This document shows positions 6,046-33,483 of a stretch of 64,000 nucleotides of DNA, one piece after another. How positions within the stretch are numbered: the first letter of the stretch is position 1; the number at the start of each line of letters is the position of its first letter. Source of the stretch: Trypanosoma brucei. Lineage: Eukaryota. The notes below the pieces were generated by a model. The model saw only the letters and a program-made list of their open reading frames with translations. It was not told the DNA's origin and did not search any database. The translations under genes and the position numbers were made by a program. The DNA lies in assembly GCA_000002445.1 (NCBI GenBank), contig CP000071.1:928001-992000 (forward strand), read 5' to 3'.

Positions 6046-6436
6046 TAATCGACATAGTTTTTGTGGCGGCTGCAATGCGATGGTGACCGCACTTCTCATT
6101 GTCGGCAACATCGCAAAACGGAACGATTTAGCGAAGAGTGCTTTGACCGCGGCTTCACCTGGGATAAGGAACCCCAATAATTTAAAGAATTTTGGAACAG
6201 GGACATCGGAGTTCACTCGGTGTCCTGCATTTGTATCTGTTTTCACTGGAAGTCGCCTTTAACATTTGTGGGAGGTTGATGCAGGTTGGCCCACGGTTCG
6301 GTGCCAATGCCACGTATAAGCATGCACAACTGTGATGATTATAATGTGGGTTGCTTGACTTTGCCCCCGTTTACATACCAATGATCCACACTAAGACTTC
6401 TGTATGCTCACATAGTCCAAGGTTTTGTTTAAAAAC

Positions 6437-7861: not shown

Positions 7862-8259
7862 GTGTTGCGCCCATGAGTTGTAGTTTTCTCTACTATTAGT
7901 GAATTTTTTGCGAGCATGGCGCCAGCAGTTTGTCTCGCTCCTTTTACCCCTTATCCGTAATGTTCGGTTGGGCATGGGAAGTAGTGCGCACCTATTGTGT
8001 ACGGCTTGGGCTAGGGGTTGACTACGTTAACGCGAAGTTGTCGAGCCCATCCTTCGATTGAATACTCCGTTGGCCATATTGAAGCCTGGAAATCCCAACA
8101 GTTTCATGCCGAACTTCACTTCCTTAATTCTTCACTGCTGTGAGAACCCCTTCTTGCGCTGCGTCTCCTTTGTACGGCCACCGAACTGTAAGTTGCCGGT
8201 AGAAAGGAGGCTAGGCACCCACTCGCAGCAGAGTGTTTAAGCTAGTGCAGTTGAGTGAT

Positions 8260-9500: not shown

Positions 9501-9605
9501 TTTTGAGTGGAACGAACACATTCAACAGGAAGTAGTGAAGTTGAAGAACTTAACGTACCGAAAGCGACAAAAGAAGTAAATAACAAAGGAAGAAAGAAAG
9601 GGGAG

Positions 9606-14935: not shown

Positions 14936-17326
14936 ATGCAAGATAAGGCGGTGCAAAAGGCGCTAATGGAGAAACGTGCACGGTTACTTCTTGGAGTCCG
15001 CATGAATTACGCCCCGTTTTCATTCATGCGGCGCCGTAGAATAACGGCTGCTGCACTTCCAGTGGCTGAACGGTCTGACCCGCTCAGCATCTGTTACCGT
15101 TGCGTGCATGAACGTCCCTTTGTGGAGCCCCCACCGGAAGGCGACAACAACTCGGACGGTGAAGCTTATGAGACAGCCCGTGATGCACTGCTCCAGCTTA
15201 ATATGATGGTGCGCCGTGGTATTGAGCCCGATGCCCTCATGTACACTTCTCTCATTGCGACCATGGGTCGGGCTCGGTTGGAGTGGCAGGCGTACAAACT
15301 GTTTTCTCGCATGCTGGAGAGCGGTATCCGACCGCTTCCCGAGACGTACGTGGCTTTGCACGACGCAACGTCTCCGAGGCGACACCATCTTCGGTGTGAC
15401 TTACAACAGAAAATCGAAGAGTCTCTTGAGACGTTTCCTGAGGAACTTGCGGAGGCTGAGTTGCAGCTACAGCGGGAAAGGGACAGATTATGTGTGCAGA
15501 AATTCGAGGAGTACATGAGCGGTGTGCTGCCACCGGCGCCACCACCGCCACCGTCGGAGCAAGAGGCTATTTCTGTGCGGGACAAGGAGCGTGAAGGAGA
15601 TCGGTCGTCATCTTTTGGTGGGGGATCAAATGCTGCGGGGTTGGGAAAAAGTGATGCGAAACCCATCGCCACAATGCATATACGGAACCCCACAGACGCA
15701 TGGAGCACCGCTCGGATGATGGATGAGCAGCAGAAGCTTGGAAATCAGCGAGCTCAGGGTAGTACGGCAATTTCCCTGTGTGAGCAACTAGACAAACTCC
15801 ATGAAGAGGAGCTGCGCATATTTCTTTCCGCTCAGAGGCAGCTACGGCACGGAAACAAAACCGACCTAGTAAAGCGTGTTCTTCACTGCGTCAGTGAAAA
15901 GAGCATTCGAGATATGCTGGAGCGTCGCAAGCATTACTTCCAGTCGGTGGCCCACATTTTGGAAAATGACTTGAATTCCCTTCGTCGCGACGGGATCATG
16001 GCGGAGAATAAGGCAGACGAGAGTGTTAATAATGAAGGTACTGATGCAATTCCATCTGCTGCCAACAGTGGTGGCTCCCAGCCCGTAATAATTTCGTATG
16101 CTTGTGGTGTAGACCAGACGATAACGGCAGAGGAAAAAGAATCGGTTGCTCCTGATTTCCTTCACACACCGTGGGGTATTCTGCGTAAGCCAGTTCGTCA
16201 TACTTCTACAGGGGAAAAGTCACGTAGCATTGATCGACTGCAACGTCTCTCGCTGAACGTAGACGAGCTGCAGCTTGTGCGCAGCAAAGCATCTACTGGC
16301 GATCTTGACGAGCTTCCGGAGAGTTTACTCCGACGTTACGCGTACCAGTTTTCCCTGACATGGAAGCGGCGGCACCCGCTCTCGCTCCTGGAAGCCGTGC
16401 AGTGGCACTCTACCACGCTCCTTCCGCAACAGCTTAACGAGGAAGGCGGCGCATCCCCCACACCAGCTCTGCGTCGCCAGCAGGAGGATGAGGGTGTGCA
16501 CAAGACGCTGGAGAATTATGAAGCTTTTCGCATTATTTCGCAGCGGACAAACAATCTGCAGGTGGTGGACAATAAGGAGATTAACTTACACTTGAAAGCT
16601 ATCCGCCGTGAAGCTCTCAGGAAGGAGCGGCGGGCAGAGGAAACGTTGCGGCGCGAGCACAGTCTACTTGAAGCGGCGGCGCTCGCGGCTTCAGCGAAGT
16701 CCTTCACGCCACCTGAGGAGGATATGGTTCCTTCATCGCGTGTGCTTGGTGTGGATGCAGAGCACAATAATGACAACGAAAGTAGCGGCCGGCTTCTGCC
16801 AACCTCCTCAGATTGGGAAAAGGGGGAATCGCAAGAAGATGAACCAAAAGAGCTGCCGCCTTGGGCAATTTTCAATGGCGAGGAGGAATTTAACATGACA
16901 ACGGGACGTTTTGGTGACCCACGTATCGGCCGCTACCAGGAGCTCAGTGACGGCCGCTTCAAAATCCTTCCCTCCCGTGAGGCACAGTCGCGCTGGACAG
17001 TGAACCGACAGCTTCTTCCGGGAGCCCTGCAGGATACATTACAGCGTGCGGAATTACAACAAAAGACTCGCGTAGAAGCTGTGGAGAAGGTACATCAGGA
17101 GAAGCTTAAGTTCAAACGTTACCGCAAGTGGGATGCGTTTCTGCGAAAAGCGCAGGATAAGCAGAAAGGGAAGCCCCAAACCGACGATAAGGAAGGAGAC
17201 GGGGATGGTAAAAAGAGCGCTGGGCCGCTTCCTGCGAAAAAGCGACTCTCTCTGTTACTGCGCAAAGGGAAAGATAAGGCACCCATTGACGATGCTGTTA
17301 AGGCTAAGTATTGCAAAACTCTGTAA
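14936..17326 (+). CDS. pentatricopeptide-repeat (PPR) protein with SAP-like motif, probable mitochondrial RNA-binding protein
   Basis: PPR-like helical repeat (LMYTSLIATMGRARLEWQAYKLFSRMLESGIRPLPETYVALHDA). SAP-like motif (LCEQLDKLHEEELRIFLSAQRQLRHGNKTDLVKRVLHCV). Arg/Phe-rich N-terminus consistent with a mitochondrial presequence. K/E-rich C-terminus. Confidence 0.5.
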   Translation: MQDKAVQKALMEKRARLLLGVRMNYAPFSFMRRRRITAAALPVAERSDPLSICYRCVHERPFVEPPPEGDNNSDGEAYETARDALLQLNMMVRRGIEPDALMYTSLIATMGRARLEWQAYKLFSRMLESGIRPLPETYVALHDATSPRRHHLRCDLQQKIEESLETFPEELAEAELQLQRERDRLCVQKFEEYMSGVLPPAPPPPPSEQEAISVRDKEREGDRSSSFGGGSNAAGLGKSDAKPIATMHIRNPTDAWSTARMMDEQQKLGNQRAQGSTAISLCEQLDKLHEEELRIFLSAQRQLRHGNKTDLVKRVLHCVSEKSIRDMLERRKHYFQSVAHILENDLNSLRRDGIMAENKADESVNNEGTDAIPSAANSGGSQPVIISYACGVDQTITAEEKESVAPDFLHTPWGILRKPVRHTSTGEKSRSIDRLQRLSLNVDELQLVRSKASTGDLDELPESLLRRYAYQFSLTWKRRHPLSLLEAVQWHSTTLLPQQLNEEGGASPTPALRRQQEDEGVHKTLENYEAFRIISQRTNNLQVVDNKEINLHLKAIRREALRKERRAEETLRREHSLLEAAALAASAKSFTPPEEDMVPSSRVLGVDAEHNNDNESSGRLLPTSSDWEKGESQEDEPKELPPWAIFNGEEEFNMTTGRFGDPRIGRYQELSDGRFKILPSREAQSRWTVNRQLLPGALQDTLQRAELQQKTRVEAVEKVHQEKLKFKRYRKWDAFLRKAQDKQKGKPQTDDKEGDGDGKKSAGPLPAKKRLSLLLRKGKDKAPIDDAVKAKYCKTL

Positions 17327-18307: not shown

Positions 18308-21300
18308 ATGTCCGGGCGCCGGGGGACGGTGAGAAGTGCTGAAGAGTGGCGGGATGCTTTCTACAACCTTGACGAACGGCATCGGCAGCTGCAGCGTAAA
18401 CTGAATGAGCAAGAACGAGAGATGAAGTTGTTGAAGGTATCGCAAAGACGAAGGTCGGCTCCCGCTGCGGCGGCTTTGCCAGGTGACGCGAACCGCAGCA
18501 CGCCTGCCGTGGCACAAGCGCAGTCTGGTGGCGTGAGAGAGGTTCCTAGTGGAGTCAAATCTAGGCTAGAGGACCCTGTGGGACTGTCAACAGAGAATTC
18601 GCGCGGGCGGAACCCGGAGCGTAGTGTCCAGTTTGTTGGAGTGCCGTCGGCTGCGAGAAGGGAAGATGCGGCAGCGGCTGCGGCTGAGATCGCCAATATT
18701 TACTCGGGTGCCCCACCCCCTGATCCTTCCATGGTGTGGGGAATGGAGAACAGCATACAGAATTACGTGACTGCTAACGCTCTCTACCACGCGAATGAGG
18801 AAATGCGGCAGCGGCTAGAAGATTGCGTTGCGGTTGTTAAGTCGCTTCAGCACGAACTGGCGGCGAGCCGTGTGCTATCGAAAAACACCCAGTCACGTTT
18901 AGATGAGGCGACGCAGCAGATACAGCAGCTCGTACGCGAGCGAGACATAGCGTGTCAAAAGCTCAGTGTCGCTCAGAACGCGACAGCTGAGCTTGAACGG
19001 CAACAAAAGCAAACGTCAGTAGAGGAGGAGCGAATCCGCTTCTCCCTTGAGAGTCAAGTTACCGAACTGCGCAACCGTTTGGTGGTTGGTGCCGATAGCA
19101 ACGAACTTCTCAGCCGAGACGTGCGCACGCTATTAGCGGAGGTGCAGGAGAAAACAACGACGATTCAGGGACTGCGGTCGAAATTGTCTCTTGCTGAGAC
19201 CGCACTCGCTTCACAGCGTCATACGAATGAGAATCTCCTTGCAGAGTTTCGCAGCCTCAACAGCCAGCTTGTGGAGGAACGGAAGCGGTTGCTCGCCATG
19301 ACGCAGGAGGTACACCTAGCGAACATGCGTGCCGGCGATATCAGGGACGCAGAGGCACGGCTTGCCGCTGTTGTAAACGATAGAACCGCTCTCGAGCGTG
19401 AGCACGCGAGGCTTATGGAAAGCCTTGTAACTGTCACAGAAGGTGCGCTTGCTATGGCGCGTGCGGAAGTGAAACAGGATTTAGATGAGTTTCGTGGCAG
19501 CGCCGCGCACTGGGAAGAAGTCGCTCAGTTACTGTACAAGGATATTGCGCAGCGTACACAAGCACATATCCACTGCAGGGAGGAGTGCGAAGAAGCGAAG
19601 CGTGCAAGGGATGAGGCCGCAGTGGCGTTGCGCGTTGCCAATGATGAACTGCGGTCTCATCGCCTCAAACTGGACATTGTGTGGCCAACACACCGGGCTG
19701 ATACTGACGGTTTGACCCACGAGCAGATGCTTTCAATTTTTGGAAGGTACAATGTTGGTGCTAGAAGGGGAAGTCAGATGCAACAACAACAGCAATCGGA
19801 GCAACATCGACTCTCTCCTGCAGAGCCGACCCTCCCTGATGGGAAACCCCAACTCTATGACGATAACGTAGCTCTTTATGGAAGGGACTTCGTGACTGCA
19901 CTGCAGGGTGCCCCGCTGGATGAACAGGTACGTGAGCTTCAAGAAGCAAACAGCGCACTGGTGGCGGAACTTCAACGCCTTCAGGTGACAAACGAACTTC
20001 AGAAAGAGCGCCTGCGTTCGTTGGAGAGTCAATTGCAGCGTAGGCAAGAGGCGGTGGAGACTGCAACTGCGGAACTCAAAGAACGTGAAATGGCAGGACA
20101 AACCTTTCTGCAGTCCCAACTCGATCGTGTCTCGTTCTTGGAGGCGCAGGTTCGTTCACTACGTGGCTATAGCATATCACCCACGAAGTCATTGTGTGAG
20201 GTTGAGGGGAACGAAACGGTGTTTGAGCTCTTCGTGGGTCAAATTTTGTCGACAGAGACCCCTGCTGGCGTTGAGTTGCGTAACACGTTCCCCCCGGTAT
20301 TCTGTTCTATAGATTTCCTGTTGCACGAAACCGTGACCACACCCGTTGTTGCCGGTCTCAACGCTTTTCTCGATACAAGTGTTTCGTTTTGTGTTGCGAT
20401 GGATGCACTGCTGCTATGCTATTTGCAGACACGGCAGCTCCTCCTTCAGTTGCATTGTGTGCGTTCCCAAGAGGAGCTTGGTGAAACAATGGTAGATAAT
20501 GATGAAACAGGGAAGCTATGCATAGGGGAGCGGCTGTACACAACGGTGGCGGAAGGGTCCGTTAGCCTATCGGCCCTTGTAGCAGATCCCAAGCAACTAG
20601 AGGCAGATCGACCAAGCATTCGCGGCCATGTTCCGCTGCGTGACGGCTTCGGTCATCACATTGCATCTGTGGAGTTCGCGGTGACTGTCCGAACACCGTT
20701 TAGCGAGGCATTTCGTGCACTAGCCGCAGAGGGGACTAGGAGTTGGAGTTTAGCGAAACATGAAGAACAACAGCAAATGGTTCAAGATCCGGTGTCAACA
20801 GTTCTGGCCGCATCTTCTTCGCGGTCTTCTCCTTTGGTGGCGGTTGTACAGAGGGACAGCCCTATATGTGAGCAAGTAGAAGGGGGCTCGGAGGTGAGGA
20901 GCGTGCGCGCCGTTTCTACTCCCAGACATGAGCGGAGAATGGTACTTGTTCCAACACCGCATCGCAGTAATGCTACTGGTCCCATATCGAGCACGTCGTC
21001 CTCTAACACTTTACTTGAGCGTTCTTCCTCCTTTACGCTCGTCCCACGTGCCGCTGCTATTGCTGCCGCCTCCGCACCTAACACTGTGCAGGCTCTCGTT
21101 GTTGACGTTTGCAAGCTTAAGCTTCCGCACGATCTATACCCTGTTCCTAGGCTTTCTTGCTACTATGCGTTAGAGCCCCTTGGCTGCAATTTGTACCTCC
21201 ACGCTCCTCCCACCGCCCGATATGAATACGAATATTTGCAGGAGGGCGGCTTCAATGGGAAACGATTCCCCATTGGATCATTGCGAGAACTACTCGCGGT

Positions 21301-21778
21301 TACACGCGAACCATTCATTTTATTCTTCTTCGACGAGTCGGCGGTTTCAACTACCATTGATATGGCATCTGCTGAGGGCAAGGTTGAGAGACATCGAGGC
21401 CAGTATTGGGCAACTGCGCGAACAGAGTGGAGGTTGGCACTTGAGAAGCCCGAAGAGTTTGTTTCGCTTGAGCTACCGCTGATCAATAAGCAGGGACTCC
21501 CAATAAAGGGCGCCACCGTGCGTGTGAGGCTGCTTGCCACTTGTAAGGGTGAAGGTCCCCAAGGTGAGAATCCTGCTCAAAGGGAACCGCAAAGCTTGTT
21601 GGGCGTTGCAGCAAGACTACCTGAGCACCGCACAAGGGGTTTTGAGGGTGCCGCCACTGCGGTTGAAGCCCGCGTTGTGGGAATTGCAACGAATCTTGAT
21701 GTCCAGGGATGTGAGTGTCCCGAGGATTCCATAGATATGGAGATAATGCGACACCAGTTGGGTTCCTTTATTCCTTGA
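18308..21778 (+). CDS. large coiled-coil hypothetical protein (1156 aa)
   Basis: Clean ATG ORF. Heptad-rich N-terminal ~600 aa (repeated LxxLxxE..R patterns, Q/E/R/L rich), then a Ser-rich linker and a globular C-terminal region. No named family recognised. Confidence 0.55.
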   Translation: MSGRRGTVRSAEEWRDAFYNLDERHRQLQRKLNEQEREMKLLKVSQRRRSAPAAAALPGDANRSTPAVAQAQSGGVREVPSGVKSRLEDPVGLSTENSRGRNPERSVQFVGVPSAARREDAAAAAAEIANIYSGAPPPDPSMVWGMENSIQNYVTANALYHANEEMRQRLEDCVAVVKSLQHELAASRVLSKNTQSRLDEATQQIQQLVRERDIACQKLSVAQNATAELERQQKQTSVEEERIRFSLESQVTELRNRLVVGADSNELLSRDVRTLLAEVQEKTTTIQGLRSKLSLAETALASQRHTNENLLAEFRSLNSQLVEERKRLLAMTQEVHLANMRAGDIRDAEARLAAVVNDRTALEREHARLMESLVTVTEGALAMARAEVKQDLDEFRGSAAHWEEVAQLLYKDIAQRTQAHIHCREECEEAKRARDEAAVALRVANDELRSHRLKLDIVWPTHRADTDGLTHEQMLSIFGRYNVGARRGSQMQQQQQSEQHRLSPAEPTLPDGKPQLYDDNVALYGRDFVTALQGAPLDEQVRELQEANSALVAELQRLQVTNELQKERLRSLESQLQRRQEAVETATAELKEREMAGQTFLQSQLDRVSFLEAQVRSLRGYSISPTKSLCEVEGNETVFELFVGQILSTETPAGVELRNTFPPVFCSIDFLLHETVTTPVVAGLNAFLDTSVSFCVAMDALLLCYLQTRQLLLQLHCVRSQEELGETMVDNDETGKLCIGERLYTTVAEGSVSLSALVADPKQLEADRPSIRGHVPLRDGFGHHIASVEFAVTVRTPFSEAFRALAAEGTRSWSLAKHEEQQQMVQDPVSTVLAASSSRSSPLVAVVQRDSPICEQVEGGSEVRSVRAVSTPRHERRMVLVPTPHRSNATGPISSTSSSNTLLERSSSFTLVPRAAAIAAASAPNTVQALVVDVCKLKLPHDLYPVPRLSCYYALEPLGCNLYLHAPPTARYEYEYLQEGGFNGKRFPIGSLRELLAVTREPFILFFFDESAVSTTIDMASAEGKVERHRGQYWATARTEWRLALEKPEEFVSLELPLINKQGLPIKGATVRVRLLATCKGEGPQGENPAQREPQSLLGVAARLPEHRTRGFEGAATAVEARVVGIATNLDVQGCECPEDSIDMEIMRHQLGSFIP

Positions 21779-23294: not shown

Positions 23295-24568
23295 TGTAGC
23301 AAGTGCTTCCGGCTTCCACCTCATTCTTTTTTTTTTCGCGGTGTATGTACTTTGGCGTGCGCTTAGGTATCACCTCCTTCACTTTAATGAGAATATGTGC
23401 CTCGGGAGGATTTGGACGGGGCTTCGGTGAGGATTCGGTTGCATATGTATTCAGTTGAGGTATGAAGGGCAACTGAGAAAGTGAAGCTTCCTGTCTGTCA
23501 CCTCTTTTTCAACACTTTTACTTTGCTGTGTTTGTAGTGTAACGCTTCTTTGACAGCGGCTGTTCGCTCCCGTTGTTAAAGTGTCATGATAAAAGGATCA
23601 ACTGGACAAATGTGCTGCTATAAAGTAACGTAACACCGGAAGAGGGAATATTTAGATTAGGAAAGTGGTACCAGGCGAGGCGGGGCTCAAGTTATGAGGT
23701 GATAAACAGTGCAAGACGTTGCAGCGCAGGCGGAAACCGAAGGCACTAGTGTACTTCAACAGTCGGATTACACCTCAGTCGCTTCGGCAGCGGTCATAGA
23801 CATAAGGCCATATATTATTGCCATTTTTATTATTGTTACATTCTATCCTTCTTTTTTTCTTGTATGCCACTTCACTTTTTCTCTTTTAGTTACCAATATC
23901 CCTCACTTTTCACTGTTCCCACTCATGGATGCATTTTCACCCCCTTTTCATTATGTTGCCGGTCACACAATTGTTCTCCAACCATTTCCACAGATCATGC
24001 CCCACCTCAATATAATTTCATTCCTTGTCTTACCCCTGGGGATAGCAACAGGAAGGGAAGGTGCAAACAGTTAAACACATTTTTGTGAGTGTGGTCACTG
24101 CACGCCCAACTGAAGGTGGGTGAGAGGAAAGGAAGGAGTGCTCGTACGTGTTTGGGGGTGGGGGTAAATCGACAAAATCCGTCTCTCGCATTTCACGTGC
24201 CCACGAACTCTATCCCTCCCCCACCTTACCTAAAGATTGGATGGACAGCGACAACACGGACGGAAGCACCCACAAAATTGAATTCAAGAGAAAAAACTTG
24301 TTTTGTTGTTGTTGTTGTTGGAGATAGGTGTTGGTGGAGGCTAAAGAAAAGGTGGTGTCCCGCAGTGGGGGTCCCAGAAGTTGACCAGTTAGACGCCTTG
24401 GCACCATATTGTTATCACGATTACTGAATAGAACACAATTTATATATATATATACTATAAAGAGAGCGCACCGACAATAAACTGCTAAGGAAGTAATAGT
24501 AAAAAAAGAGTTTTACTCAGGTGAAAAAGGAGGCGACAAAAGTGAAGATCCGGGTGGCAGACTGTGCG

Positions 24569-27500
24569 ATGGTTACCACTGGTCTTAGTCCTGGGGCACT
24601 GTCCTTGCTACAAAATGCTGGCATTAACTTGAAGGATTTTTCCAGAGCACAGGCAAGTTATGAAAAGCTTTGTGTCGAGCTCTCCAAGGGAGCATCCGCT
24701 GCTGGTGAAGGGGATGCGACCGCTGCGTCATCAATGGAAGACTTACAGCGCCTCTGTGACGCATGGGGGGAGTACACAGTTGTGGCTCAAGCATACTTTC
24801 GGAAGGTTTCCTTAGCTGCGTTGGAACAGCTAGTCAGTAGACCGCGAGGCGAGTCGTCCGCAACAGAGCGTGCTGAAAAGTTGAACGAGCTTTGTGCCAT
24901 AGGTGAGAAATGGCACGTTGGCAGGGAAACCATGTTCAAGCTTGATCACCCAGAGAAGCTGGCCGCAGTTGTGGTGGAGGCACTCGACTCCTCCAGTTGC
25001 ATCATGCGACTCCTTGCCTTACGGCTCGCCCGAATCTTCGCAGCAGACACTGAATTTCTTCGTTGCCTCTTTTCGAAAGGAGGTGCAGGACTTATTGGTA
25101 TGTGTTTTGACCATGAAAACACTACAGAGTTGGAGTACGTGCTAAGTTTGTGCAGGCGGCTGATTGAACTGCACAAGGCCTCCGCTGAACCATACCACGA
25201 ACTTCCCTTCGGTTGGGTTTACCGCATTGCGGCGCTACTCGACTTGCAGGATCCTGTGCCGAACCTTCTCCTCAAACGAAGGAGTCAAGCGCTCTGCGTC
25301 GCCGTGATGCTTCTTCGGCAGTTCCCACAGATGGCGACGACCGCGTCGCTACATATTACCCTCTTGCGGTACTGTATCGAAAAGGGTGCTGCCACTCGCG
25401 ATGAAGTACAATCTGTTCTTGAGGTGATTCTAGACATGTTTGATTCACCTGAGACACGACAGTATCTAGGTTACAATGACCTTGACGTTCTATACGCACC
25501 TTTTTTGTACTCAACCAACATGTGCAGTACGGAAGACTTAACCCTGATGAATGGAGCGAAAGAGGTACTGGTTATGCTGATGCGGAATTGGGTTGGTGTG
25601 TTGTGGGTGTGTTCCGAGACAAAAGGACTCCGTGCCGTGATTGACATTCTACATTTGCCATGTGATCTTGACAGAAAGATGGTACTACTAACACTTTTCA
25701 ACAAGTTGTTGTATCAGCTGGCACCGCACCGCGGTATAACGCTGGTGGAGCCGTGGCGGGGGTTTAAGGAAAAGCAGGAACTATTCCCGGCCACTCCCAA
25801 TGAACCTGCAGATTCTGAGGGGAGTTTTGTGCTTAACACTCCACTGGGGAGGGGGCATAACAGCAGCGAAAGCATGATCTCCGAACATGTATTTGGTGAT
25901 TGGTGCGATGAGCCGGATGAGTTTGTCCCGACAACCAAGGCGATCGGTTACCACGTGCTAGATCCCATTCTTGGTCGTGTGCTATTGATGCTCTCGCACC
26001 ATGGTCTTCCCATCGCATTGGTTTCAGTCATACAAGACCCCAACTCCAGCTCTGTCCTAACCCACGCCGCGCTATCACTTCTTCAGGACATGCTAACACT
26101 CATGGATACTGTGCTCCCTGAGAAGCCAGTGAAACGACTTCATACGGCACTTAATAAAGCTGTGGGTCGTCTCGCACTCGAGGGTTGTTTGTCGTTGGAG
26201 GGCGTTCTCTCCTCTCGGATCCCTCAACGAGGTAAAACAGCAAAGGGCATAGCAACCACCGCCACGGTCGCGGTTGGGAACGTGGTGGGGAGCGGGTGGG
26301 TGAGTGCACTTTCAACTGCCTCAGTAGCGACGTATGGTTTAGGCGCGTTGGAGCAAGACGATGCAGACTTCAAGAGGATGTTGAAGGATACGAATGTTGA
26401 GGGGGGGAATAGTTTTTTGTCATGGAACTATGACCTACTACTGCTACTTTTTCAGGGCCCACTAAAGAGCATCAGGAGGTTTCGGTGGGTGCTGAATGAA
26501 ACTCTGTTCTTTCGAAACCTCATTGCGTTCTACCTTCCAGTGATTAACACATCTACACGGACCTTTTTGACACTTCAGCCGAGGGAGGCCACTCCGCAAG
26601 TGTGCATGTTGGGGATGGTGATGCTTGACTTGTTCCTCTCTACGCGAGAAGGGACTGCTGCGCTTGATTCATTCGGCTTCAGCGGAGCCATGGCAGCCTG
26701 CCTTGAGGAAGTGATCCGAGGAACACCATATGTGCTAAATAAGCAACGTGTGGGAAAGCGTGTGGGGCAGACTCTACTCCGCATGGTTGGGAGGTACTCC
26801 ATGACGGCAAATGGTCTTGTGGTGCTAAAGGACTCAAACATGTTTTCTACCATCAATAGGATGTTTGTGGAGCTTTCTGGGGAACGGGTTAGCGCCCCGT
26901 ACCCCGATGACACCCTGCAGGAGGTTTGTCTTCAGCTTCTGCGTTGCATGAATCTTGGTGCCGTACCCAACTACGGAGTATGTGAATGGATTCGTCAAAT
27001 GTTTCGTTCAGCGCTATGCAATGAGTCCGACGAGATAAGGTTATGTGCTGTGAAGCAGCTGCGTGATGCCCTGTGGCGTGACTTCTCTACGTCCATGCGG
27101 TGGGGTATTGAAACGCTGGTCCAAGCTCTGCACGACGATCATTCCCGTGTTGTTGAGTGCGCCTTCAAACTCCTGTTGAACGTTTGCTTTTGTTCCGACG
27201 AGGCACTGGATTACCTCATTTCTCTTTCTCCAACAGTACTAATGGAGAGTGACACGATTCGAGAGAATGCCAAACAGCTTGACCTTAACACCTTGCTATA
27301 CTGCATCGTAGGGCGGCCATCAGGGTTCCGATTCCTGCAGTGCTACGGCTGGGTAGAGCAGGAATTACGCCGCTGGGAAGAAACGGAGTCGGCTAACCAT
27401 GTTACTACCGTGGAGAATATGCAATCTGGCCGCGCACTGGGGTCCGGGGCCGACTTTCGTGAAGGTATGAGCGCGTTGTTCCGTCATCGCCACAACCGCA

Positions 27501-28786
27501 CTTACTCCGACACAGGGTTGACCTTTCAGAAGCCCATCACGGCAACCGCCGGACCAGACTCACAAGTTACTCTACCATCTGGAATATTCCCAAGCCACTT
27601 TGCTGCGGTATTGTGTAAGTCCAACGAGGGGTGCACGCTCTTCAAGCACAGCAACCTGTGGCAACGATCCGTGCGACGGATACTTGAACAGCCAATGTTA
27701 CCTGATATTGTGTATGAGTGCGGAACATTTGGCGAGAGGGACAACATCGACGACGATGACGTGGATATGGACGGAACAACAGCGGATGACGATGACGCTA
27801 ATGCGCTGATTGAGGAGGATCCATCATTTGTAGGTCGTTGGGGCACGGAAGCAGCCAAAACTAGTACCGCCAAGCAGGATGAAAAGCACGCACTGCGCCT
27901 GTCGCGAGAGGGGCACCTTCCATCTTCTCATTCGGTGAAACTCCTATCCGCGTCCCGTGGCTATCAAGCGGCTGGACAGACCTACACCATTGAGTGTGTC
28001 GGGGACGTCAGCGAGCTAAAGGACGCCATACTTTGTGTGTGCCACGCCGCATCTAGCGACGCCGGCTTCTCTCTAATGCGTAGCGTGCCTATGTTGCAAA
28101 ATCAACTGATGGCGCTGTCGCGTTTTGCCGATACGGCAAGTGTTTCTAGTATTTGTATTGTTGGTAAATGTCTGCTTGCCCGCTCGAGGCGCGCTGCGGA
28201 GAAACTGACTGAGATATCCCACTACGTAGTAAACGAAAGTAACGCGTACATGAGTGCCGACGGTGTGCCGTACTCCGTTGCTTTTGCTGATAATCGACCG
28301 TCCAACTGGACGGCCATCGGTCGCCGCGACAATCCATCAAGGGTTTCGTGCTCGCCACCATACTTCGCCCACATGCGTTACGATGGAGAGATGGTGGATG
28401 GAAATTCAAAGAATGACGAAGAAACCACCGACTCGGTAGGCTCCACCCCTTCTCCAGTGGACTCTCGCGATTCCAGTACCTTCTGTGACGTTATTAAGGG
28501 CCTGAGTGCGACGTCGACCCGCATCCTTCACCACATCTTTGCACTTTCCAATCCTGTGCGCCGCGACGCTGCAAGACAGATGTTGTCGCAGACCCTAAAG
28601 CATCAACCCCATATCTTTGTGAATCCCCAAATGCGGTGGCTTCTTAGGCACTGCGCTCAGGCTTTTCGTATGCGGTATGACGACCGGAAATTCATAGCTA
28701 GCATATTGGAGGAAGCCCCACTTACAAAACCAACCCCACTAGTCCGTAAAACGGTTGTTTTCGTGCCGGAACCACAGCGTGGCTGA
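24569..28786 (+). CDS. RICTOR: RICTOR/AVO3 homologue (TOR complex 2 subunit)
   Basis: Several blocks align to conserved Rictor regions: DSPETRQYLGYNDLDVLYAPFLY (cf. human NHPKTRQYVRADVELERILAPYTD); LSWNYDLLLLLFQGPLKSIRRFRWVLNETLFFRNLIAFYLP (cf. WNWNLIGTILKWPNVNLRNYKDEQLHRFVRRLLYFYKP); RWGIETLVQALHDDHSRVVECAFKLLLNVC (cf. NWGIELLVTQLHDKNKTISSEALDILDEAC). The ORF-track GTG start at 24521 was corrected to the ATG at 24569. Confidence 0.7.
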   Translation: MVTTGLSPGALSLLQNAGINLKDFSRAQASYEKLCVELSKGASAAGEGDATAASSMEDLQRLCDAWGEYTVVAQAYFRKVSLAALEQLVSRPRGESSATERAEKLNELCAIGEKWHVGRETMFKLDHPEKLAAVVVEALDSSSCIMRLLALRLARIFAADTEFLRCLFSKGGAGLIGMCFDHENTTELEYVLSLCRRLIELHKASAEPYHELPFGWVYRIAALLDLQDPVPNLLLKRRSQALCVAVMLLRQFPQMATTASLHITLLRYCIEKGAATRDEVQSVLEVILDMFDSPETRQYLGYNDLDVLYAPFLYSTNMCSTEDLTLMNGAKEVLVMLMRNWVGVLWVCSETKGLRAVIDILHLPCDLDRKMVLLTLFNKLLYQLAPHRGITLVEPWRGFKEKQELFPATPNEPADSEGSFVLNTPLGRGHNSSESMISEHVFGDWCDEPDEFVPTTKAIGYHVLDPILGRVLLMLSHHGLPIALVSVIQDPNSSSVLTHAALSLLQDMLTLMDTVLPEKPVKRLHTALNKAVGRLALEGCLSLEGVLSSRIPQRGKTAKGIATTATVAVGNVVGSGWVSALSTASVATYGLGALEQDDADFKRMLKDTNVEGGNSFLSWNYDLLLLLFQGPLKSIRRFRWVLNETLFFRNLIAFYLPVINTSTRTFLTLQPREATPQVCMLGMVMLDLFLSTREGTAALDSFGFSGAMAACLEEVIRGTPYVLNKQRVGKRVGQTLLRMVGRYSMTANGLVVLKDSNMFSTINRMFVELSGERVSAPYPDDTLQEVCLQLLRCMNLGAVPNYGVCEWIRQMFRSALCNESDEIRLCAVKQLRDALWRDFSTSMRWGIETLVQALHDDHSRVVECAFKLLLNVCFCSDEALDYLISLSPTVLMESDTIRENAKQLDLNTLLYCIVGRPSGFRFLQCYGWVEQELRRWEETESANHVTTVENMQSGRALGSGADFREGMSALFRHRHNRTYSDTGLTFQKPITATAGPDSQVTLPSGIFPSHFAAVLCKSNEGCTLFKHSNLWQRSVRRILEQPMLPDIVYECGTFGERDNIDDDDVDMDGTTADDDDANALIEEDPSFVGRWGTEAAKTSTAKQDEKHALRLSREGHLPSSHSVKLLSASRGYQAAGQTYTIECVGDVSELKDAILCVCHAASSDAGFSLMRSVPMLQNQLMALSRFADTASVSSICIVGKCLLARSRRAAEKLTEISHYVVNESNAYMSADGVPYSVAFADNRPSNWTAIGRRDNPSRVSCSPPYFAHMRYDGEMVDGNSKNDEETTDSVGSTPSPVDSRDSSTFCDVIKGLSATSTRILHHIFALSNPVRRDAARQMLSQTLKHQPHIFVNPQMRWLLRHCAQAFRMRYDDRKFIASILEEAPLTKPTPLVRKTVVFVPEPQRG

Positions 28787-29730
28787 CGTATGTCGGGGAA
28801 CGAGCTAGGTAGTTTTTTTTATTGGGATGTTATGTGTGGCTACGTGTGCGACTACCGTTTTATCTCCGTTTCTGTTTTAGCCTTTGTGCGCGTGTGTGTG
28901 TGTGTTAACTTTTTTTGGAGTGGATGCAGGCAGTTGGTTGACGTGGGGTTAGGGTTTACGCGCTGACAGAAGTGGCTGTAGAGTATGGAAAGTCTTTGTA
29001 TCTGTGGAGGGGAAAAGGACGCTGTTTCAGCTGGGCAATTTTACTAGATGCGACAAGCTAGGCCGTGTGCACACCATATATATATTTATTTATTTATCAC
29101 ATTTACTTTTATTTCGTACCCTCTTCGTGAAGTGCGCTAATACGCATGAGAAGGCAGTACAAAGCACCCCCGGGTGCTGCTTCGTCAGTTCATTTACAAC
29201 TGTGCGCGCTGCTGGGAAAATTCTGCTTTACGCTTGCTTTACGACCGGCCGCTGTTACATAGTGAGGGGTTTCGATAGTCCCGTCCCGCTTCTCATTCTG
29301 TACTTTTTTCTTTCTGTTTTTACGATTGTGCATGTGGGTGTATCGTACGTGCGCCGAAACTGTGTGTGTGGGAGTGCTGGCTACCGCGTTGTCATTGAGC
29401 ATCGAGCCTAAGTCTGGAAAGCGTAGTTTTTTTGGTATCAGTGACGTTTGTGAGGGGGGGGCTGGAGGCCGTTTTTGGCGCCTTTGTCTTCACGCTTTGT
29501 GCTTTTGCTCTGTTTGCCTCCGCTGTTGAATACGTTTTAAAAGGATTTACTTCAGCGCTTACCCCCCGGTTTATATGTTTTCTTGTTTTATGTCTTCCTC
29601 GACTGTATATTGCTGCTAATTCGTGTGTTTGCTCTTGTTTGGTATAGGTTGTTGAAGGGAAACTGAGGTAACGTTGACGTGGGAAGAGTAATTGGAGGAA
29701 TATCCGACTGCGTGTTTTCTCGGTTGCACC

Positions 29731-30249
29731 ATGACGGACACCACCAAAGGTGCACTGAAACGAAGCAACACGCTCTTCCTTAGCGACGCGGAACAATTTG
29801 TTTTCGACTTTGGTGGGTCTGCGGGTGGCCGTGCCGTGAGCCCGGGCTCATCGCATGGAAGCGGAGGTCAACCCGGAGAAGGTGACGGGGAAAAGGGTAT
29901 TGAGGAGACCGATTTGGCTAACGGGAGGACCGGAGTGGTGACACCTTTCAGCGAAAGGGAAAGGACTGCTCCAGTGGCACCGTTAGACGCTGAGGAGGTG
30001 CAACGCTATTTTGATAAGGCTCTCAAGGGTGGTCGCCGAATATTACTTGAAAACGTACCCCTCGATGAGGCTATCGAGAAGTTTCAGCTCGGGTTGCGGC
30101 GCTACGAGGAGTGGTTGTGCAACCAAGCCAACAGCAGGAATCGAGGCGACTCGTCGAAGAGCCGTGGGGACCCCTTGAATGAAGGTTATCGTGGAAAACC
30201 GGGTGATGTAGCAAGGGACGCAAAGGATAGGAAACGCCCACGTTTGTAG
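29731..30249 (+). CDS. hypothetical protein (172 aa)
   Basis: ATG (MTDTTKGALK) inside the 29692 ORF. Sits in a gene-sized slot between RICTOR and EXO1. No family recognised. Confidence 0.3.
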   Translation: MTDTTKGALKRSNTLFLSDAEQFVFDFGGSAGGRAVSPGSSHGSGGQPGEGDGEKGIEETDLANGRTGVVTPFSERERTAPVAPLDAEEVQRYFDKALKGGRRILLENVPLDEAIEKFQLGLRRYEEWLCNQANSRNRGDSSKSRGDPLNEGYRGKPGDVARDAKDRKRPRL

Positions 30250-31089
30250 TGTTGTATTACTTGTGTTTCACTGAGGGGTTTTATTGTATGTGCGCGCTCA
30301 TGCTTGAGCTGCGATAAAAACAGTTGAAGTGGCGGTGTGCGTGTTGGGGACGCGGTTAAATCCCTTCGGGATGCGGTGAACATGGAGTTGCATGCGCGGT
30401 AGTTTTTTTAATTGCCGCTGTTTGGACCCGCGCCGTGGTCAAGCGCAAAATGAACATTATTTTAATTTTTGCAGTTTGTCTTGGGCTGACGAATAATGAT
30501 GGGTGCTTTGCGTGGTCTTTTTACGTCTTCTGTTTCCCAAATCCCCTGTCGACCCTATTTACTTTTTCCCCCCTCGTGCTGCTTGTGTAAGCAATTTATT
30601 TTAGGTTAAGTAGGTGATAGCGGTAAACTTGCCAAACACCTCCGGTCAAAAGGGTAGGGAAGGGATTACAGCGCGTTTCCGTTCTGAAGTCTCTGTTTGT
30701 AGCAGCGGCGAGTCAGTGAGCTAGTTTTTAGATATAAGCATCATTTTAGGTTTCTTTCTTTCCGTTCTCTGTCTTGTGTGTGTATCGTTTTGTGCGTATT
30801 CGGTACTATTAATTTCATTTGGCTCATCGCACTGTGATATCTGAGTTTCCCACGAAGGCTACGAAGGGCAAAACTTGTTAGAGTGCCGATCACGGAAAGC
30901 CTTTAGAAAGGTGGTGCACTCGGGAGTATTGTCGCAGTGTTGCCACTCCACTGGGAGGCACGAAGGAAAATTTGTACACATATATATTTGTTTATTTACA
31001 TTGTATTATTATAGGGGGAAGGAGTGCTGAACTTTTGGGCACTCAAACCTCGATTCCACCGTCTCTACGCCCACCGCCGTGCTGACACT

Positions 31090-33483
31090 ATGGGGATTAA
31101 AGGGTTATGGGGAGAAGTGAAACCCGTGTGCCGAGACGCACACTTGGAGAAATTCAGAGGGAGCCGTGTTGGAGTTGACATGTACGTGTGGCTCCACCGC
31201 GCTGTCAGCGGAAGCGTTGATCTCAGTACCGAAGCGAATGTTGAAATGCTTAGGGCACATGTTGAAAGCCTGTCAGATCCTTCCGTGACAGTCAGCGCGC
31301 ATCCCATTCCCCTTAACACAAAATTTCTCCACTGGGTGATGAGTCAGGTCGAGCTTCTTCTGCGATACGGTGTGAAGCCTGTGCTGGTGTTTGATGGGAG
31401 GGAGTTGCCAATGAAGCGTGAGGAAGAAGAGGAACGAAGACGGAACAGGATCAAGCACCTCTCTGAGGCTCTGGATTTGCTGCGGCGCAACTCGAGGCCG
31501 ACGCCTAGCGAACGTAAGGATATAGCAGGGCTAGTGGAAAGGGGAATGGACATAACAACGGAGCTTGCACATGCCGTGATCATGATGTTACAAGAACGCC
31601 AGTTGGAGTGCATTGTGGCGCCTTACGAGGCGGATGCCCAGTTAGCGTATTTGTGCCAGCAGAGGTATGTGGACGCGGTAATAACGGAGGACAGCGATCT
31701 CCTTGTGTATTGGTGTCCGCGGCTTATCGCTAAGTTAGATCACAAGGGAAGTTGTCAAGTTATTGAGGTGGAAAGCGTACTTCATTGTCCTTTGTTTAAA
31801 GGACTTTCGTATAACTCTTTCCTCGTCGGCTGCATTCTTAGTGGCTGTGATTACTTACCTAATTTGCGGCATATTGGCGTGAAGAAGGCATTCGGCATTA
31901 TGTCAGAGGCCAGGTCGGTGCCGGATGTCATTCGGTTATTAGAGGAAAACTATGGGTTTCCCAGGGAGCAACTGCGCAAATATGAAGCTGGTTTACAGAG
32001 AGCCATCTACTGTTTTTTACACCACATCGTCTTTGACCCGGTGAAACGTGCGTTGGTTACCCGAACACCTCTTCCAAACGGAGTTGCGTTCAAGCAGAGC
32101 ATTTTGGGTGAGTTAGTGGGGGACGATCTCGCCCAAAGCATGTGCTGCCAGTGCCTCTACGATCCCACCACACGCTCTTTATACAAGGGAATTTATCAGT
32201 ATTGTTTGGATAATTACCGGAAGACTTCCCGCGCTGGTCAGAGTACGTTGACGGCATTCAACGGGTTCAAGGAGCTGCGGTCGCCGCGTATGACCTTACG
32301 ACTTGCTTCAAGCAACTCTCAGGCGTCAGCCACATCAGTGTCGAATACCCCGCTTACGCCACCGACGAAAACGTTTTTCTCAGCACCGCTGGAGAAAGTG
32401 CGGGAAGCCGAAGGTTACTGTGGGCCGAAGGTTGTGCGATCCAAGTACTTTGTGAACGGGCAGTGGAAGGTGGACAACTGGGAGGAGAGCAGTTCGCAGG
32501 GCGGAGACTCAAACACCAAGAATGGCAACGGTGACGACAGTCAAAGCCCTAGCGGCGCTGTTACCGATGAATGTGATGCCGCTGGCGGTGTTCGAAGTGA
32601 CGGTGGAAAATGTTGTGTCAAGAGTGAGCCACCGACGCCACCTGACCGTGTTAGCTGTGCAACACTGAGCTGTAAAGCTTCAAGCGTTTGTCAGGTTGCA
32701 GGTGCCTCCGACTCAGCAACCGCAGATGCGGACCGAGCAGTGGACCCATCGCACGGTGAATTCAGAGGGACGGAGCTTACGTGTAGCGACGTGTGCGGGT
32801 TAACAGAGGTTCCCTGCTCTAATGTAGAAGGCAGCGCCAGTGCACTCCTTCAAGAATGCGGCGCAGATGCGCCCAACGACCCGGTGGGCGCTGACCGTGC
32901 CAGCGTGCAAGATGTGAATGAGGGCGCAGAAATGCTTTGTCCCTTTGGCTACATTCAATGCAGACGGAAGCATTCCCTGTTTGAGCAGTGCTTCGTTGGA
33001 AAGGGGTGGACAAAGAAGGCTAATAACCCCAACGATCAAAATAATGGCTCCGGTGCCCAGGTGGTCCCGCAGGGCGATACTGATGGTGATGGGGGTACGT
33101 CGCCATGGAGAACAAGAGGGAGTGCGAAGCGTAGGTGGAGTGAGATAGAGAGTGTGCAGCCGTCGCAGTCACCACCGCTTGTGTCTTCTTCTTCTTCGTT
33201 CCTTCATTCCATTGCCTCAACCACTGCTTCGCCGCTTACCGTACGTGAAGCAAACGATGCCAAAACTGGAGGTTCATGTGGAGGGTCGGTTTCTGTGCCC
33301 TGCAGGATGCAGTCAAACTCACCCAAAACTCTCACTGAGCAATGTGCGAACGGGTTGGCAACTGAAGATGCCTCTGATGAAGGCGTCAATGCAGACTTCA
33401 GTGCCAGCACATCCCAAAGTAGTGTCGCTGCCGCCCCTAAGGCGGCAGCCCTCTTTGAGCTGTTATCTTATACGCGACGGTAG
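31090..33483 (+). CDS. EXO1: exonuclease 1 (XPG/Rad2-family 5'-3' exonuclease/flap endonuclease)
   Basis: The N-terminus MGIKGLWGEVKPVCRDAHLEKFRGSRVGVDMYVWLHRA is the XPG-N signature. The XPG-I acidic block VAPYEADAQLAYL...VITEDSDLLVY is present. A helix-hairpin-helix-like GCDYLPNLRHIGVKKA follows. The long Ser/Cys/Asp-rich C-terminal tail is typical of EXO1 rather than FEN1. The ATG at 31090 lies inside the ORF-track ORF starting at 31024. Confidence 0.85.
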   Translation: MGIKGLWGEVKPVCRDAHLEKFRGSRVGVDMYVWLHRAVSGSVDLSTEANVEMLRAHVESLSDPSVTVSAHPIPLNTKFLHWVMSQVELLLRYGVKPVLVFDGRELPMKREEEEERRRNRIKHLSEALDLLRRNSRPTPSERKDIAGLVERGMDITTELAHAVIMMLQERQLECIVAPYEADAQLAYLCQQRYVDAVITEDSDLLVYWCPRLIAKLDHKGSCQVIEVESVLHCPLFKGLSYNSFLVGCILSGCDYLPNLRHIGVKKAFGIMSEARSVPDVIRLLEENYGFPREQLRKYEAGLQRAIYCFLHHIVFDPVKRALVTRTPLPNGVAFKQSILGELVGDDLAQSMCCQCLYDPTTRSLYKGIYQYCLDNYRKTSRAGQSTLTAFNGFKELRSPRMTLRLASSNSQASATSVSNTPLTPPTKTFFSAPLEKVREAEGYCGPKVVRSKYFVNGQWKVDNWEESSSQGGDSNTKNGNGDDSQSPSGAVTDECDAAGGVRSDGGKCCVKSEPPTPPDRVSCATLSCKASSVCQVAGASDSATADADRAVDPSHGEFRGTELTCSDVCGLTEVPCSNVEGSASALLQECGADAPNDPVGADRASVQDVNEGAEMLCPFGYIQCRRKHSLFEQCFVGKGWTKKANNPNDQNNGSGAQVVPQGDTDGDGGTSPWRTRGSAKRRWSEIESVQPSQSPPLVSSSSSFLHSIASTTASPLTVREANDAKTGGSCGGSVSVPCRMQSNSPKTLTEQCANGLATEDASDEGVNADFSASTSQSSVAAAPKAAALFELLSYTRR

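What the first reader, a model, noticed from the sequence alone, without database searches (positions are those of the whole stretch)
24569..28786. RICTOR/AVO3 homologue (TORC2 scaffold) recognised from three conserved blocks
A 1406-aa ORF of this size would usually be left as a hypothetical ARM/HEAT protein. Three separated segments align convincingly with conserved Rictor regions (TRQY..LAPY block, WNxxLL...FYxP block, WGIExLV..LHD block), which supports orthology with the TORC2-specific subunit. The C-terminal ~500 aa are divergent and acidic or low-complexity (DDDDVDMDGTTADDDDANA).
Basis: partly seen in the sequence, partly recalled or inferred. Interest (0 to 1): 0.5.

Follow-up and report, generated by a model that had tools for sequence, protein, structure and literature searches.

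The report
Trypanosoma brucei Rictor/AVO3 gene (known)
The ORF is the single-copy Rictor/AVO3 gene of Trypanosoma brucei, the scaffold subunit that defines TOR complex 2; it is already annotated and was studied experimentally, so the call is correct but ordinary.

Summary

The Rictor interpretation holds:
- Pfam gives RICTOR_N (7e-23), RICTOR_M (3e-18) and RasGEF_N_2 (1e-14) above threshold, and RICTOR_V just below it.
- The only significant solved-structure relatives are human Rictor and yeast TSC11/Avo3 (profile E 1e-37 and 7e-36).
- An AlphaFold model of residues 1-1000 has human Rictor as its top Foldseek hit (2e-14; next hit 1e-7).

The exact protein is already public as T. brucei TREU927 AAZ13085.1 / UniProt Q57YZ3, "Rapamycin-insensitive companion of TOR2". 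Reviews report an AVO3/rictor orthologue bound to TbTOR2.

One correction. The C-terminal ~450 aa are not simply divergent. They hold three conserved helical modules: 1008-1046, RICTOR_V at 1139-1216, and a terminal module at about 1303-1389. These are separated by disordered loops, one of which is the acidic run. By profile searches, the terminal module matches human Rictor 1613-1692 and yeast Avo3 1334-1419, the domain that masks the FRB of TOR.

Verdict: already known, low interest.

The parts
24569..28786 (+). Complete coding sequence of Rictor/AVO3 (1405 aa plus TGA stop)
   Evidence: ORF and translation. The exact protein is in public records as T. brucei TREU927 AAZ13085.1 / Q57YZ3. The same 1405-aa gene model is called in two NCBI assemblies.
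24569..24877 (+). N-terminal extension, aa 1-103, ahead of the Rictor ARM domain; predicted mostly as long helices
   Evidence: AlphaFold model with helices 24-44 and 50-89, pLDDT about 74-89 apart from one block near aa 41-50. No Pfam hit even at E 10. Moderately conserved in trypanosomatids.
24878..25708 (+). RICTOR_N / ARM domain, aa 104-380; contains the TRQY...LYAPF block at aa 296-312
   Evidence: Pfam PF14664, E 6.9e-23, 81.7 bits against a cut-off of 28.5. Aligns to human Rictor 91-320.
25781..25960 (+). Poorly conserved, predicted-disordered loop, aa 405-464
   Evidence: pLDDT below 50. Majority-residue fraction 0.35 over aa 400-450.
26423..26539 (+). WNYDLL...FYLP block, aa 619-657, in the HEAT-like domain
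   Evidence: Aligned with yeast TSC11 'WNWNII...FYRP' and human 'WNWNLI...FYKP'.
26726..27070 (+). RICTOR_M, aa 720-834
   Evidence: Pfam PF14666, E 3.4e-18, 65.7 bits against a cut-off of 27.
27098..27421 (+). RasGEF_N_2 domain of Rictor, aa 844-951; contains WGIETLVQALHDD
   Evidence: Pfam PF14663, E 1.4e-14, 54.8 bits against a cut-off of 27. This is the best-conserved region in trypanosomatids, majority fraction 0.80.
27590..27706 (+). Conserved three-helix island, aa 1008-1046 (FPSHFAAVLCKSNEGCTLFKHS...)
   Evidence: pLDDT 86-91. Majority fraction 0.81. The same profile stretch is also matched in Rictors of other eukaryotes.
27707..27979 (+). Acidic, low-complexity, predicted-disordered loop, aa 1047-1137, including DDDDVDMDGTTADDDDANA at aa 1061
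   Evidence: pLDDT below 50. D+E fraction 0.22. Expanded by more than 100 aa of Q/G-rich sequence in Leishmaniinae orthologues.
27983..28216 (+). RICTOR_V helical repeats; folded island aa 1139-1216, Pfam match aa 1149-1216
   Evidence: Pfam PF14668, E 3.3e-5, 24.4 bits, just under the cut-off of 27. The trypanosomatid profile aligns it to human Rictor 917-989. pLDDT 77-91. The same stretch hits RICTOR_V-bearing proteins in the 1.84-billion-protein library.
28217..28318 (+). Conserved segment after RICTOR_V, aa 1217-1250 (NAY.SADGVPYSVAF...W), with short strands predicted at low confidence
   Evidence: Many invariant columns. Majority fraction 0.73. Two short strands in a model whose pLDDT is below 50 here. 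Its role is not established; it may correspond to the linker anchor described for human Rictor (inference from PMC7673708).
28319..28474 (+). Variable disordered linker, aa 1251-1302
   Evidence: Majority fraction 0.27. pLDDT below 50.
28475..28735 (+). C-terminal domain module, aa about 1303-1389 (…ALSNPV…P.IF…FRMRY.DRKFI..ILE…), homologous to the FRB-masking C-terminal domain of Rictor/Avo3
   Evidence: pLDDT 85-94 helices. A trypanosomatid-only profile hits Rictor proteins of other eukaryotes at this stretch. hhalign of the trypanosomatid module against the non-trypanosomatid module gives probability 98.7% over Tb 1311-1389. The combined module profile hits human Rictor 1613-1692 (E 8e-18) and yeast TSC11 1334-1419 (E 7e-14).

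Best explanation
This is the single-copy Rictor/AVO3 orthologue of Trypanosoma brucei, in a one-strand run of genes that matches annotated T. brucei-group chromosome assemblies.

It is an all-helical scaffold of 1405 aa, with the following parts:
- a lineage-specific helical N-terminal extension (aa 1-103);
- an ARM domain (about 104-400);
- a HEAT-like domain (about 465-1216), interrupted by three disordered loops;
- a linker (about 1217-1302);
- a small C-terminal helical domain (about 1303-1389).

The mechanism is inferred by homology to the solved human and yeast complexes. The ARM domain would bind the HEAT repeats of the TOR2 kinase at the site raptor uses in TORC1, committing TOR2-LST8 to TORC2. 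The HEAT-like domain would carry accessory subunits. The C-terminal domain would sit on the FRB domain next to the kinase cleft, restricting substrate access and FKBP12-rapamycin binding.

Shown here: identity, domain content, collinearity, fold similarity and conservation of the C-terminal domain. Taken from the literature, not tested here: association with TbTOR2 and the roles of TbTORC2 in actin polarisation, endocytosis and cytokinesis. Inferred: the contact geometry in the trypanosome complex.
For: - Pfam: RICTOR_N 6.9e-23, RICTOR_M 3.4e-18 and RasGEF_N_2 1.4e-14, all well above their curated cut-offs. RICTOR_V scores 3.3e-5, just below its cut-off. The four occur in the canonical order.
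- PDB sequence search: the only significant hits are human Rictor and yeast TSC11/Avo3. E is 1e-11 to 6.6e-9 with the single sequence and 9.5e-38 to 7.2e-36 with a 13-species trypanosomatid profile, collinear over three segments.
- Structure: the AlphaFold model of aa 1-1000 (mean pLDDT 70) has human Rictor chain 7pe8_E as its top Foldseek hit. E is 2.2e-14 over 966 columns; the next hit, karyopherin beta2, is at 1.2e-7.
- C-terminal domain: supported.
- Identity: the sequence is identical to AAZ13085.1 / Q57YZ3, 'Rapamycin-insensitive companion of TOR2'. The same gene model appears in two NCBI assemblies.
- Conservation: one orthologue in each of about 14 other trypanosomatid species or isolates, at 31-74% identity and full length.
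- Literature: TbTOR2 associates with an AVO3/rictor orthologue (PMC3901119, PMC5461346, both citing Barquilla et al. 2008). Avo3/Rictor architecture and FRB masking are described in PMC5700991, PMC7673708 and bioRxiv 10.1101/2025.07.02.662585.
Against: - Nothing found here contradicts the assignment.
- RICTOR_V alone is sub-threshold: 24.4 bits against a cut-off of 27.
- The Foldseek match has a low global TM-score (0.32), because the relative placement of domains in the model is uncertain (pTM 0.46).
- The homology of the C-terminal domain to human and yeast rests on a two-step profile chain. Direct single-profile matches were not significant: -3.8 bits to human and 1.3 bits to yeast.
- The primary paper naming TbAVO3 (Barquilla et al. 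2008) is not in the held library. That their TbAVO3 is this locus is therefore inferred, from the UniProt name and from the search returning only one such protein cluster for the T. brucei group.
- T. brucei TORC2 is reported to be rapamycin-sensitive. This is unexpected for a complex with an intact FRB-masking domain.
Confidence: 0.95

Rival explanations
1. A generic ARM/HEAT-repeat protein whose resemblance to Rictor is due to repeat composition only.
For: Helical-repeat proteins cross-match one another. Foldseek lists many karyopherins and CAND1 at E 1e-7 to 1e-5. The HEAT and HEAT_2 Pfam models give weak hits at aa 818-886.
Against: Three Rictor-specific Pfam families score 28-53 bits above their cut-offs and occur in canonical order. 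Among 177,635 distinct PDB sequences, only Rictor and TSC11 are significant. Rictor is the top structural hit by seven orders of magnitude.
Confidence: 0.01
2. A Rictor-derived scaffold that, in trypanosomes, serves a TOR complex other than TORC2. T. brucei has four TOR kinases, so the gene may not be a functional equivalent of AVO3.
For: T. brucei has TOR1-4, each with distinct partners (PMC5461346). No interaction was tested here. The N-terminal 103 aa and three internal loops are lineage-specific.
Against: Reviews state that TbTOR2 associates with the AVO3/rictor orthologue (PMC3901119, PMC5461346). The homology search found only one Rictor-family cluster for the T. brucei group. All domains known to contact TOR in the human and yeast complexes are retained.
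Confidence: 0.03
3. A decaying or mis-called gene, for example with the wrong start or a fused ORF.
For: Automated calls on Logan assemblies give 1414 aa, starting at GTG 24542.
Against: The 1414-aa form is a bacterial-style GTG start. Curated eukaryotic records use ATG 24569 and give 1405 aa. Orthologues align from Met1 to the C-terminus with invariant columns throughout. The 4.2-kb frame has no internal stop. A pyrimidine-rich tract followed by AG lies about 250 nt upstream, as expected for a trans-splice acceptor (inference).
Confidence: 0.01

Closest known systems
Trypanosoma brucei TbAVO3 / 'Rapamycin-insensitive companion of TOR2' (UniProt Q57YZ3, GenBank AAZ13085.1)
   Same: Identical amino-acid sequence over all 1405 residues. 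The neighbouring genes are also the same as in public T. brucei-group assemblies.
   Different: Nothing. This is the same gene.
Human RICTOR (1708 aa; PDB 6zwm, 7pe8, 5zcs)
   Same: The ARM domain, the HEAT-like domain (including RICTOR_M, RasGEF_N_2 and RICTOR_V) and the terminal helical module of the C-terminal domain are all retained and collinear. It is the top structural match.
   Different: - About 19% identity over the modelled part.
- The ~550-aa disordered phosphorylation region between the HEAT-like and C-terminal domains of human Rictor (PMC7673708) corresponds here to only about 85 residues (1217-1302).
- Trypanosome-specific loops sit at 405-464, about 538-596 and 1047-1137.
- The metazoan zinc finger preceding the C-terminal domain was not detected, and was not specifically tested.
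- There is an extra 103-aa helical N-terminus.
Saccharomyces cerevisiae Avo3/TSC11 (1430 aa; PDB 9rsq)
   Same: Similar length and the same domain order. It gives the best single-sequence PDB hit (E 1e-11). The C-terminal module aligns to Avo3 1334-1419, inside the C-terminal 157 aa whose deletion makes yeast TORC2 rapamycin-sensitive (PMC5700991).
   Different: Yeast has a ~298-aa unresolved N-terminal extension and a FAT-invading segment in the linker (bioRxiv 10.1101/2025.07.02.662585). Whether trypanosome aa 1217-1250 does the same job is unknown. Yeast TORC2 is rapamycin-insensitive, whereas T. brucei TORC2 is reported to be the rapamycin target (PMC3901119).

Membership tests
Rictor/AVO3 (TORC2-specific scaffold) | RICTOR_N (ARM domain), PF14664 | tested here: met
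   E 6.9e-23, 81.7 bits against a cut-off of 28.5, aa 104-380. Aligns to human Rictor 91-320.
Rictor/AVO3 (TORC2-specific scaffold) | RICTOR_M, PF14666 | tested here: met
   E 3.4e-18, 65.7 bits against a cut-off of 27, aa 720-834.
Rictor/AVO3 (TORC2-specific scaffold) | RasGEF_N_2, PF14663 | tested here: met
   E 1.4e-14, 54.8 bits against a cut-off of 27, aa 844-951.
Rictor/AVO3 (TORC2-specific scaffold) | RICTOR_V, PF14668 | tested here: met
   The single sequence is just under threshold: 24.4 bits against 27, E 3.3e-5, aa 1149-1216. The trypanosomatid profile aligns the region to human Rictor 917-989. It also retrieves RICTOR_V-bearing Rictors from the 1.84-billion-protein library. Several orthologues carry a precomputed PF14668 hit.
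Rictor/AVO3 (TORC2-specific scaffold) | C-terminal helical domain homologous to the FRB-masking domain of Rictor/Avo3 | tested here: met
   Met by a two-step profile chain only.
- Trypanosomatid C-terminal profile to Rictors of other eukaryotes, confirmed as Rictor by Pfam.
- hhalign probability 98.7% over Tb 1311-1389.
- Combined module profile to human Rictor 1613-1692 (8e-18) and yeast TSC11 1334-1419 (7e-14).

Direct matches were not significant. Pfam has no model for this module.
Rictor/AVO3 (TORC2-specific scaffold) | Best match among proteins of known structure is Rictor/Avo3 and not another helical-repeat protein | tested here: met
   By sequence, all significant PDB hits are Rictor or TSC11. 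By fold, 7pe8_E (Rictor) is ranked first at 2.2e-14 and the next hit is at 1.2e-7.
Rictor/AVO3 (TORC2-specific scaffold) | Physical association with TOR2-LST8, mutually exclusive with raptor/KOG1 | not testable with these tools
   Reported for T. brucei in reviews citing Barquilla et al. 2008 (PMC3901119, PMC5461346). The primary paper is not held in the library.
Metazoan-type Rictor | Zinc finger and long phosphorylation region preceding the C-terminal helix bundle (PMC7673708) | not tested
   The linker here is only about 85 aa (1217-1302), and no extra structured element was predicted in it. The zinc-ligand positions were not aligned explicitly.

The most novel reading that the evidence does not exclude
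T. brucei TORC2 is reported to be the rapamycin-sensitive complex, the reverse of yeast and mammals, yet TbAVO3 keeps the C-terminal module that masks the FRB domain elsewhere.

The most novel reading not excluded is that lineage-specific changes leave the TbTOR2 FRB accessible in the assembled complex. Candidate changes are the short 85-aa linker, the absence of the metazoan zinc-finger element, and substitutions in the C-terminal domain. TbAVO3 itself would then be the structural cause of the inverted drug sensitivity.

The more conservative reading is that rapamycin-FKBP12 only captures free TbTOR2 before assembly. That fits the title of Barquilla et al. 2008, 'preventing TOR complex 2 formation'.
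Probability: 0.1. Interest if true: 0.45.

Novelty: already known. Interest (0 to 1): 0.08.

Why it matters
As a discovery it matters little. The gene is annotated in public databases and its product has been described as the TbTORC2 partner of TbTOR2.

The useful results of this check are:
- a confirmed, domain-resolved map of the protein in window coordinates;
- the correction that the C-terminal third is not junk: it contains the last HEAT-like repeats and a conserved C-terminal domain that Pfam does not model;
- the point that loss of the Avo3/Rictor C-terminal domain cannot explain the rapamycin sensitivity of trypanosome TORC2, which narrows the possible explanations for that known oddity.

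Tried and rejected
- Foldseek of the C-terminal AlphaFold model (aa 955-1405, mean pLDDT 57) against the PDB gave no hit with E below 0.7. Only generic ARM-repeat matches of about 75 residues appeared. The model is three confident islands joined by disordered loops, so a global fold search is not informative. I switched to profile methods.
- A second word-indexed homology search with the trypanosomatid alignment returned the same 15 proteins, so it added no diversity.
I used the C-terminal 451-aa profile instead.
- Pfam scans of the N-terminal 110 aa, the 1008-1046 island and the last 187 aa at E up to 10 gave nothing.
- The primary papers (Barquilla et al. 2008, PMC2567229; Barquilla et al. 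2012, PMC3437835) are not held. No held paper pairs 'AVO3' with a Tb927 gene identifier, so the systematic gene ID could not be confirmed.
- Rfam and tRNA scans of the whole window found nothing.
- The antisense ORFs inside the gene (26575-26913 and 27526-27873, 112-115 aa) were treated as chance ORFs opposite a conserved coding frame and were not pursued.


Full report
**Observation.** The window has an open frame on the + strand from 24521 to 28786. The first ATG is at 24569 and the stop is TGA at 28784-28786.

- TRQY at aa 296, followed by LYAPF at aa 308. 'LAPY' is the human spelling.
- WNYDLL at aa 619 and FYLP at aa 654.
- WGIETLV at aa 845 and LHDD at aa 854.
- The acidic run DDDDVDMDGTTADDDDANA at aa 1061.

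**Context.** All 18 ORFs of 200 aa or more in the window lie on the + strand, and GC content is about 50%. This is the pattern of a trypanosomatid polycistronic unit.

The exact 1405-aa sequence is in public collections as T. brucei brucei TREU927 AAZ13085.1 and UniProt Q57YZ3, 'Rapamycin-insensitive companion of TOR2'. It was seen on a 2.48-Mb contig. The same gene model, with the same neighbours, is called in NCBI assemblies GCA_003543875.1 and GCA_001457755.2. Those neighbours are a C2-C2_1 protein upstream and an XPG-family nuclease downstream.

A 1414-aa variant in Logan gene calls starts at GTG 24542. That is a bacterial-style start call, not a biological alternative. A pyrimidine-rich tract followed by AG sits about 250 nt upstream of the ATG, consistent with a trans-splice acceptor (inference).

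**Identity.** Pfam finds four Rictor domains in canonical order:

| Domain | Residues | E-value | Bits | Cut-off |
|---|---|---|---|---|
| RICTOR_N | 104-380 | 6.9e-23 | 81.7 | 28.5 |
| RICTOR_M | 720-834 | 3.4e-18 | 65.7 | 27 |
| RasGEF_N_2 | 844-951 | 1.4e-14 | 54.8 | 27 |
| RICTOR_V | 1149-1216 | 3.3e-5 | 24.4 | 27 (not reached) |

Against all PDB chain sequences, the only significant matches are yeast TSC11/Avo3 (1e-11) and human Rictor (about 5e-9). A profile of 13 trypanosomatid orthologues raises these to 9.5e-38 (human) and 7.2e-36 (yeast). It aligns three collinear segments, including RICTOR_V to human 917-989.

An AlphaFold model of aa 1-1000 has mean pLDDT 70 and is all-helical. Disordered loops lie at 405-464 and in the 514-596 stretch. 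Its top Foldseek hit is human Rictor chain 7pe8_E, at E 2.2e-14 over 966 columns. Karyopherin beta2 is next at 1.2e-7. The global TM-score is low (0.32) because the inter-domain geometry of the model is uncertain.

Orthologues are found in about 14 other trypanosomatid species or isolates at 31-74% identity, and nearly all are full length. Neither is met.

**The C-terminal third.** That is only partly true. Conservation among trypanosomatids and an AlphaFold model of aa 955-1405 show three confident, conserved helical islands:
- aa 1008-1046, majority-residue fraction 0.81;
- aa 1139-1216, which is RICTOR_V;
- aa 1303-1385.

They are separated by predicted-disordered segments: 955-1007, the acidic loop 1047-1137 and the linker 1251-1302. 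Conservation is 0.47, 0.51 and 0.27 respectively. A further conserved stretch (1217-1250, 'SADGVPYSVAF') follows RICTOR_V, but the model is not confident there.

A Foldseek search with this fragmented model gave nothing, so I used profiles. A trypanosomatid-only profile of the C-terminal 451 aa was searched exhaustively against 1.84 billion representative proteins. It gave 104 hits at E up to 1e-3. The matched stretches were RICTOR_V and the extreme C-terminal module.

Seven sampled hits of 1240-1734 aa all carry RICTOR_N, RICTOR_M, RasGEF_N_2 and RICTOR_V, so they are Rictors of other eukaryotes. hhalign of the trypanosomatid module against the non-trypanosomatid module gives probability 98.7% over Tb 1311-1389. 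One caveat applies: the second set was selected by similarity to the first.

A combined module profile hits human Rictor 1613-1692 (8e-18) and yeast TSC11 1334-1419 (7e-14), and nothing else significant. Pfam has no model for this module, which explains why it looks 'divergent' in routine annotation.

**Mechanism.** In yeast and human TORC2, three things are established:
- Avo3/Rictor binds the same TOR HEAT repeats that raptor uses, making the two complexes mutually exclusive (PMC5700991).
- The protein is built of an ARM domain, a HEAT-like domain and a C-terminal domain (PMC7673708; bioRxiv 10.1101/2025.07.02.662585).
- The C-terminal domain sits on the FRB and blocks FKBP12-rapamycin. Deleting the last 157 aa of Avo3 makes yeast TORC2 rapamycin-sensitive (PMC5700991).

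All three domains are retained here, so the same scaffold mechanism is the best-supported inference.

For T. brucei, reviews report that TbTOR2 associates with the AVO3/rictor orthologue. They also report that TbTORC2 controls actin polarisation, endocytosis and cytokinesis, and that rapamycin acts on TORC2 rather than TORC1 (PMC3901119, PMC5461346, PMC3160303, citing Barquilla et al. 2008). None of this was tested here, and the primary paper is not in the held library.

Because TbAVO3 keeps the FRB-masking module, its loss cannot explain the inverted rapamycin sensitivity. The simplest reading is interference with complex assembly, as the title of the 2008 paper says. A residual possibility of about 0.1 is that lineage-specific differences leave the FRB exposed.

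**Comparison and novelty.** The gene is identical to an annotated, named and experimentally studied T. brucei protein. Relative to human Rictor:
- it lacks the ~550-aa phosphorylation region, having an ~85-aa linker instead;
- it has its own disordered loops and a 103-aa helical N-terminal extension.

Relative to yeast Avo3 it is similar in size and order. Novelty is 'already known' and interest is low.

**What led nowhere.** See the 'tried and rejected' field.

Noticed in passing
window 1-64000: All ORFs of 200 aa or more are on the + strand. This is a single trypanosome polycistronic unit of the T. brucei group. Pfam content of neighbours: coronin-like WD40 (1009-2586), mitochondrial-type ribosomal S9 (4090-5421), MraW/RsmH-like methyltransferase (6425-7861), Sir2 (8233-9180), CCT/TCP-1 chaperonin subunit (9507-11276), PPR protein (14936-17326), fatty-acid hydroxylase family (37642-38454) and metallo-beta-lactamase fold (56604-57758).
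   Followed up: partly
window 39385-53409 (+): A 4674-aa ORF is a complete dynein heavy chain. It has DHC_N1 and DHC_N2, the AAA modules, the microtubule-binding stalk and Dynein_C, and it hits the axonemal DYH2-5-8 coiled-coil model.
   Followed up: partly
window 54290-54982 (+): A 230-aa ORF hits the YceI-like domain (PF04264, E 2.7e-5, 25.0 bits against a cut-off of 23.7). From background knowledge this family is mostly bacterial, which would make it unusual in a trypanosome gene array. The hit is marginal and was not checked further.
   Followed up: no
window 18308-21778 (+): A 1156-aa protein immediately upstream carries the first C2 domain of RPGR-interacting protein 1 (PF11618, E 8e-32). 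From background knowledge that domain belongs to ciliary transition-zone proteins, which was not checked here.
   Followed up: no
window 31024-33483 (+): An XPG/Rad2-family nuclease (XPG_N and XPG_I) lies downstream. A 172-aa gene with no Pfam hit sits between it and the Rictor gene (about 29732-30249).
   Followed up: no
window 24569-24877 (aa 1-103 of the protein): The N-terminal extension ahead of the ARM domain is predicted as two long helices (aa 24-44 and 50-89). Several Rictors of other eukaryotes retrieved here carry an HR1 (Rho-binding coiled-coil hairpin) domain at the same position (P0057, P0078, P0092). Yeast Avo3 is also said to have two long N-terminal helices (bioRxiv 10.1101/2025.07.02.662585). 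No HR1 hit was found in the trypanosome protein, so any relationship is unproven.
   Followed up: partly
window 28475-28735; proteins P0039-P0113: The terminal helical module of Rictor is conserved from trypanosomes to fungi and animals. Its consensus is ...eIL..i.NLSNhv...A.k.L..Lk...P..F..p.L...v..lL..Y.fRl..RRFI.eLFd. It has no Pfam model. PMC7673708 states that the complete C-terminal domain is absent from fungal Rictor sequences. Yet yeast TSC11 1334-1419 matches the module profile at 7e-14, in line with the later yeast structure paper.
   Followed up: yes
alignment A3, columns 150-265 (orthologues P0010, P0011, P0013, P0014): Leishmaniinae orthologues expand the acidic loop, equivalent to window 27707-27979, by more than 100 residues of Q-, G- and N-rich low-complexity sequence. 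This accounts for most of their extra length of 120-165 aa.
   Followed up: no
window 24440-24462 and 28892-28908: Short (TA)n and (GT)n microsatellites lie in the intergenic regions flanking the gene.
   Followed up: no
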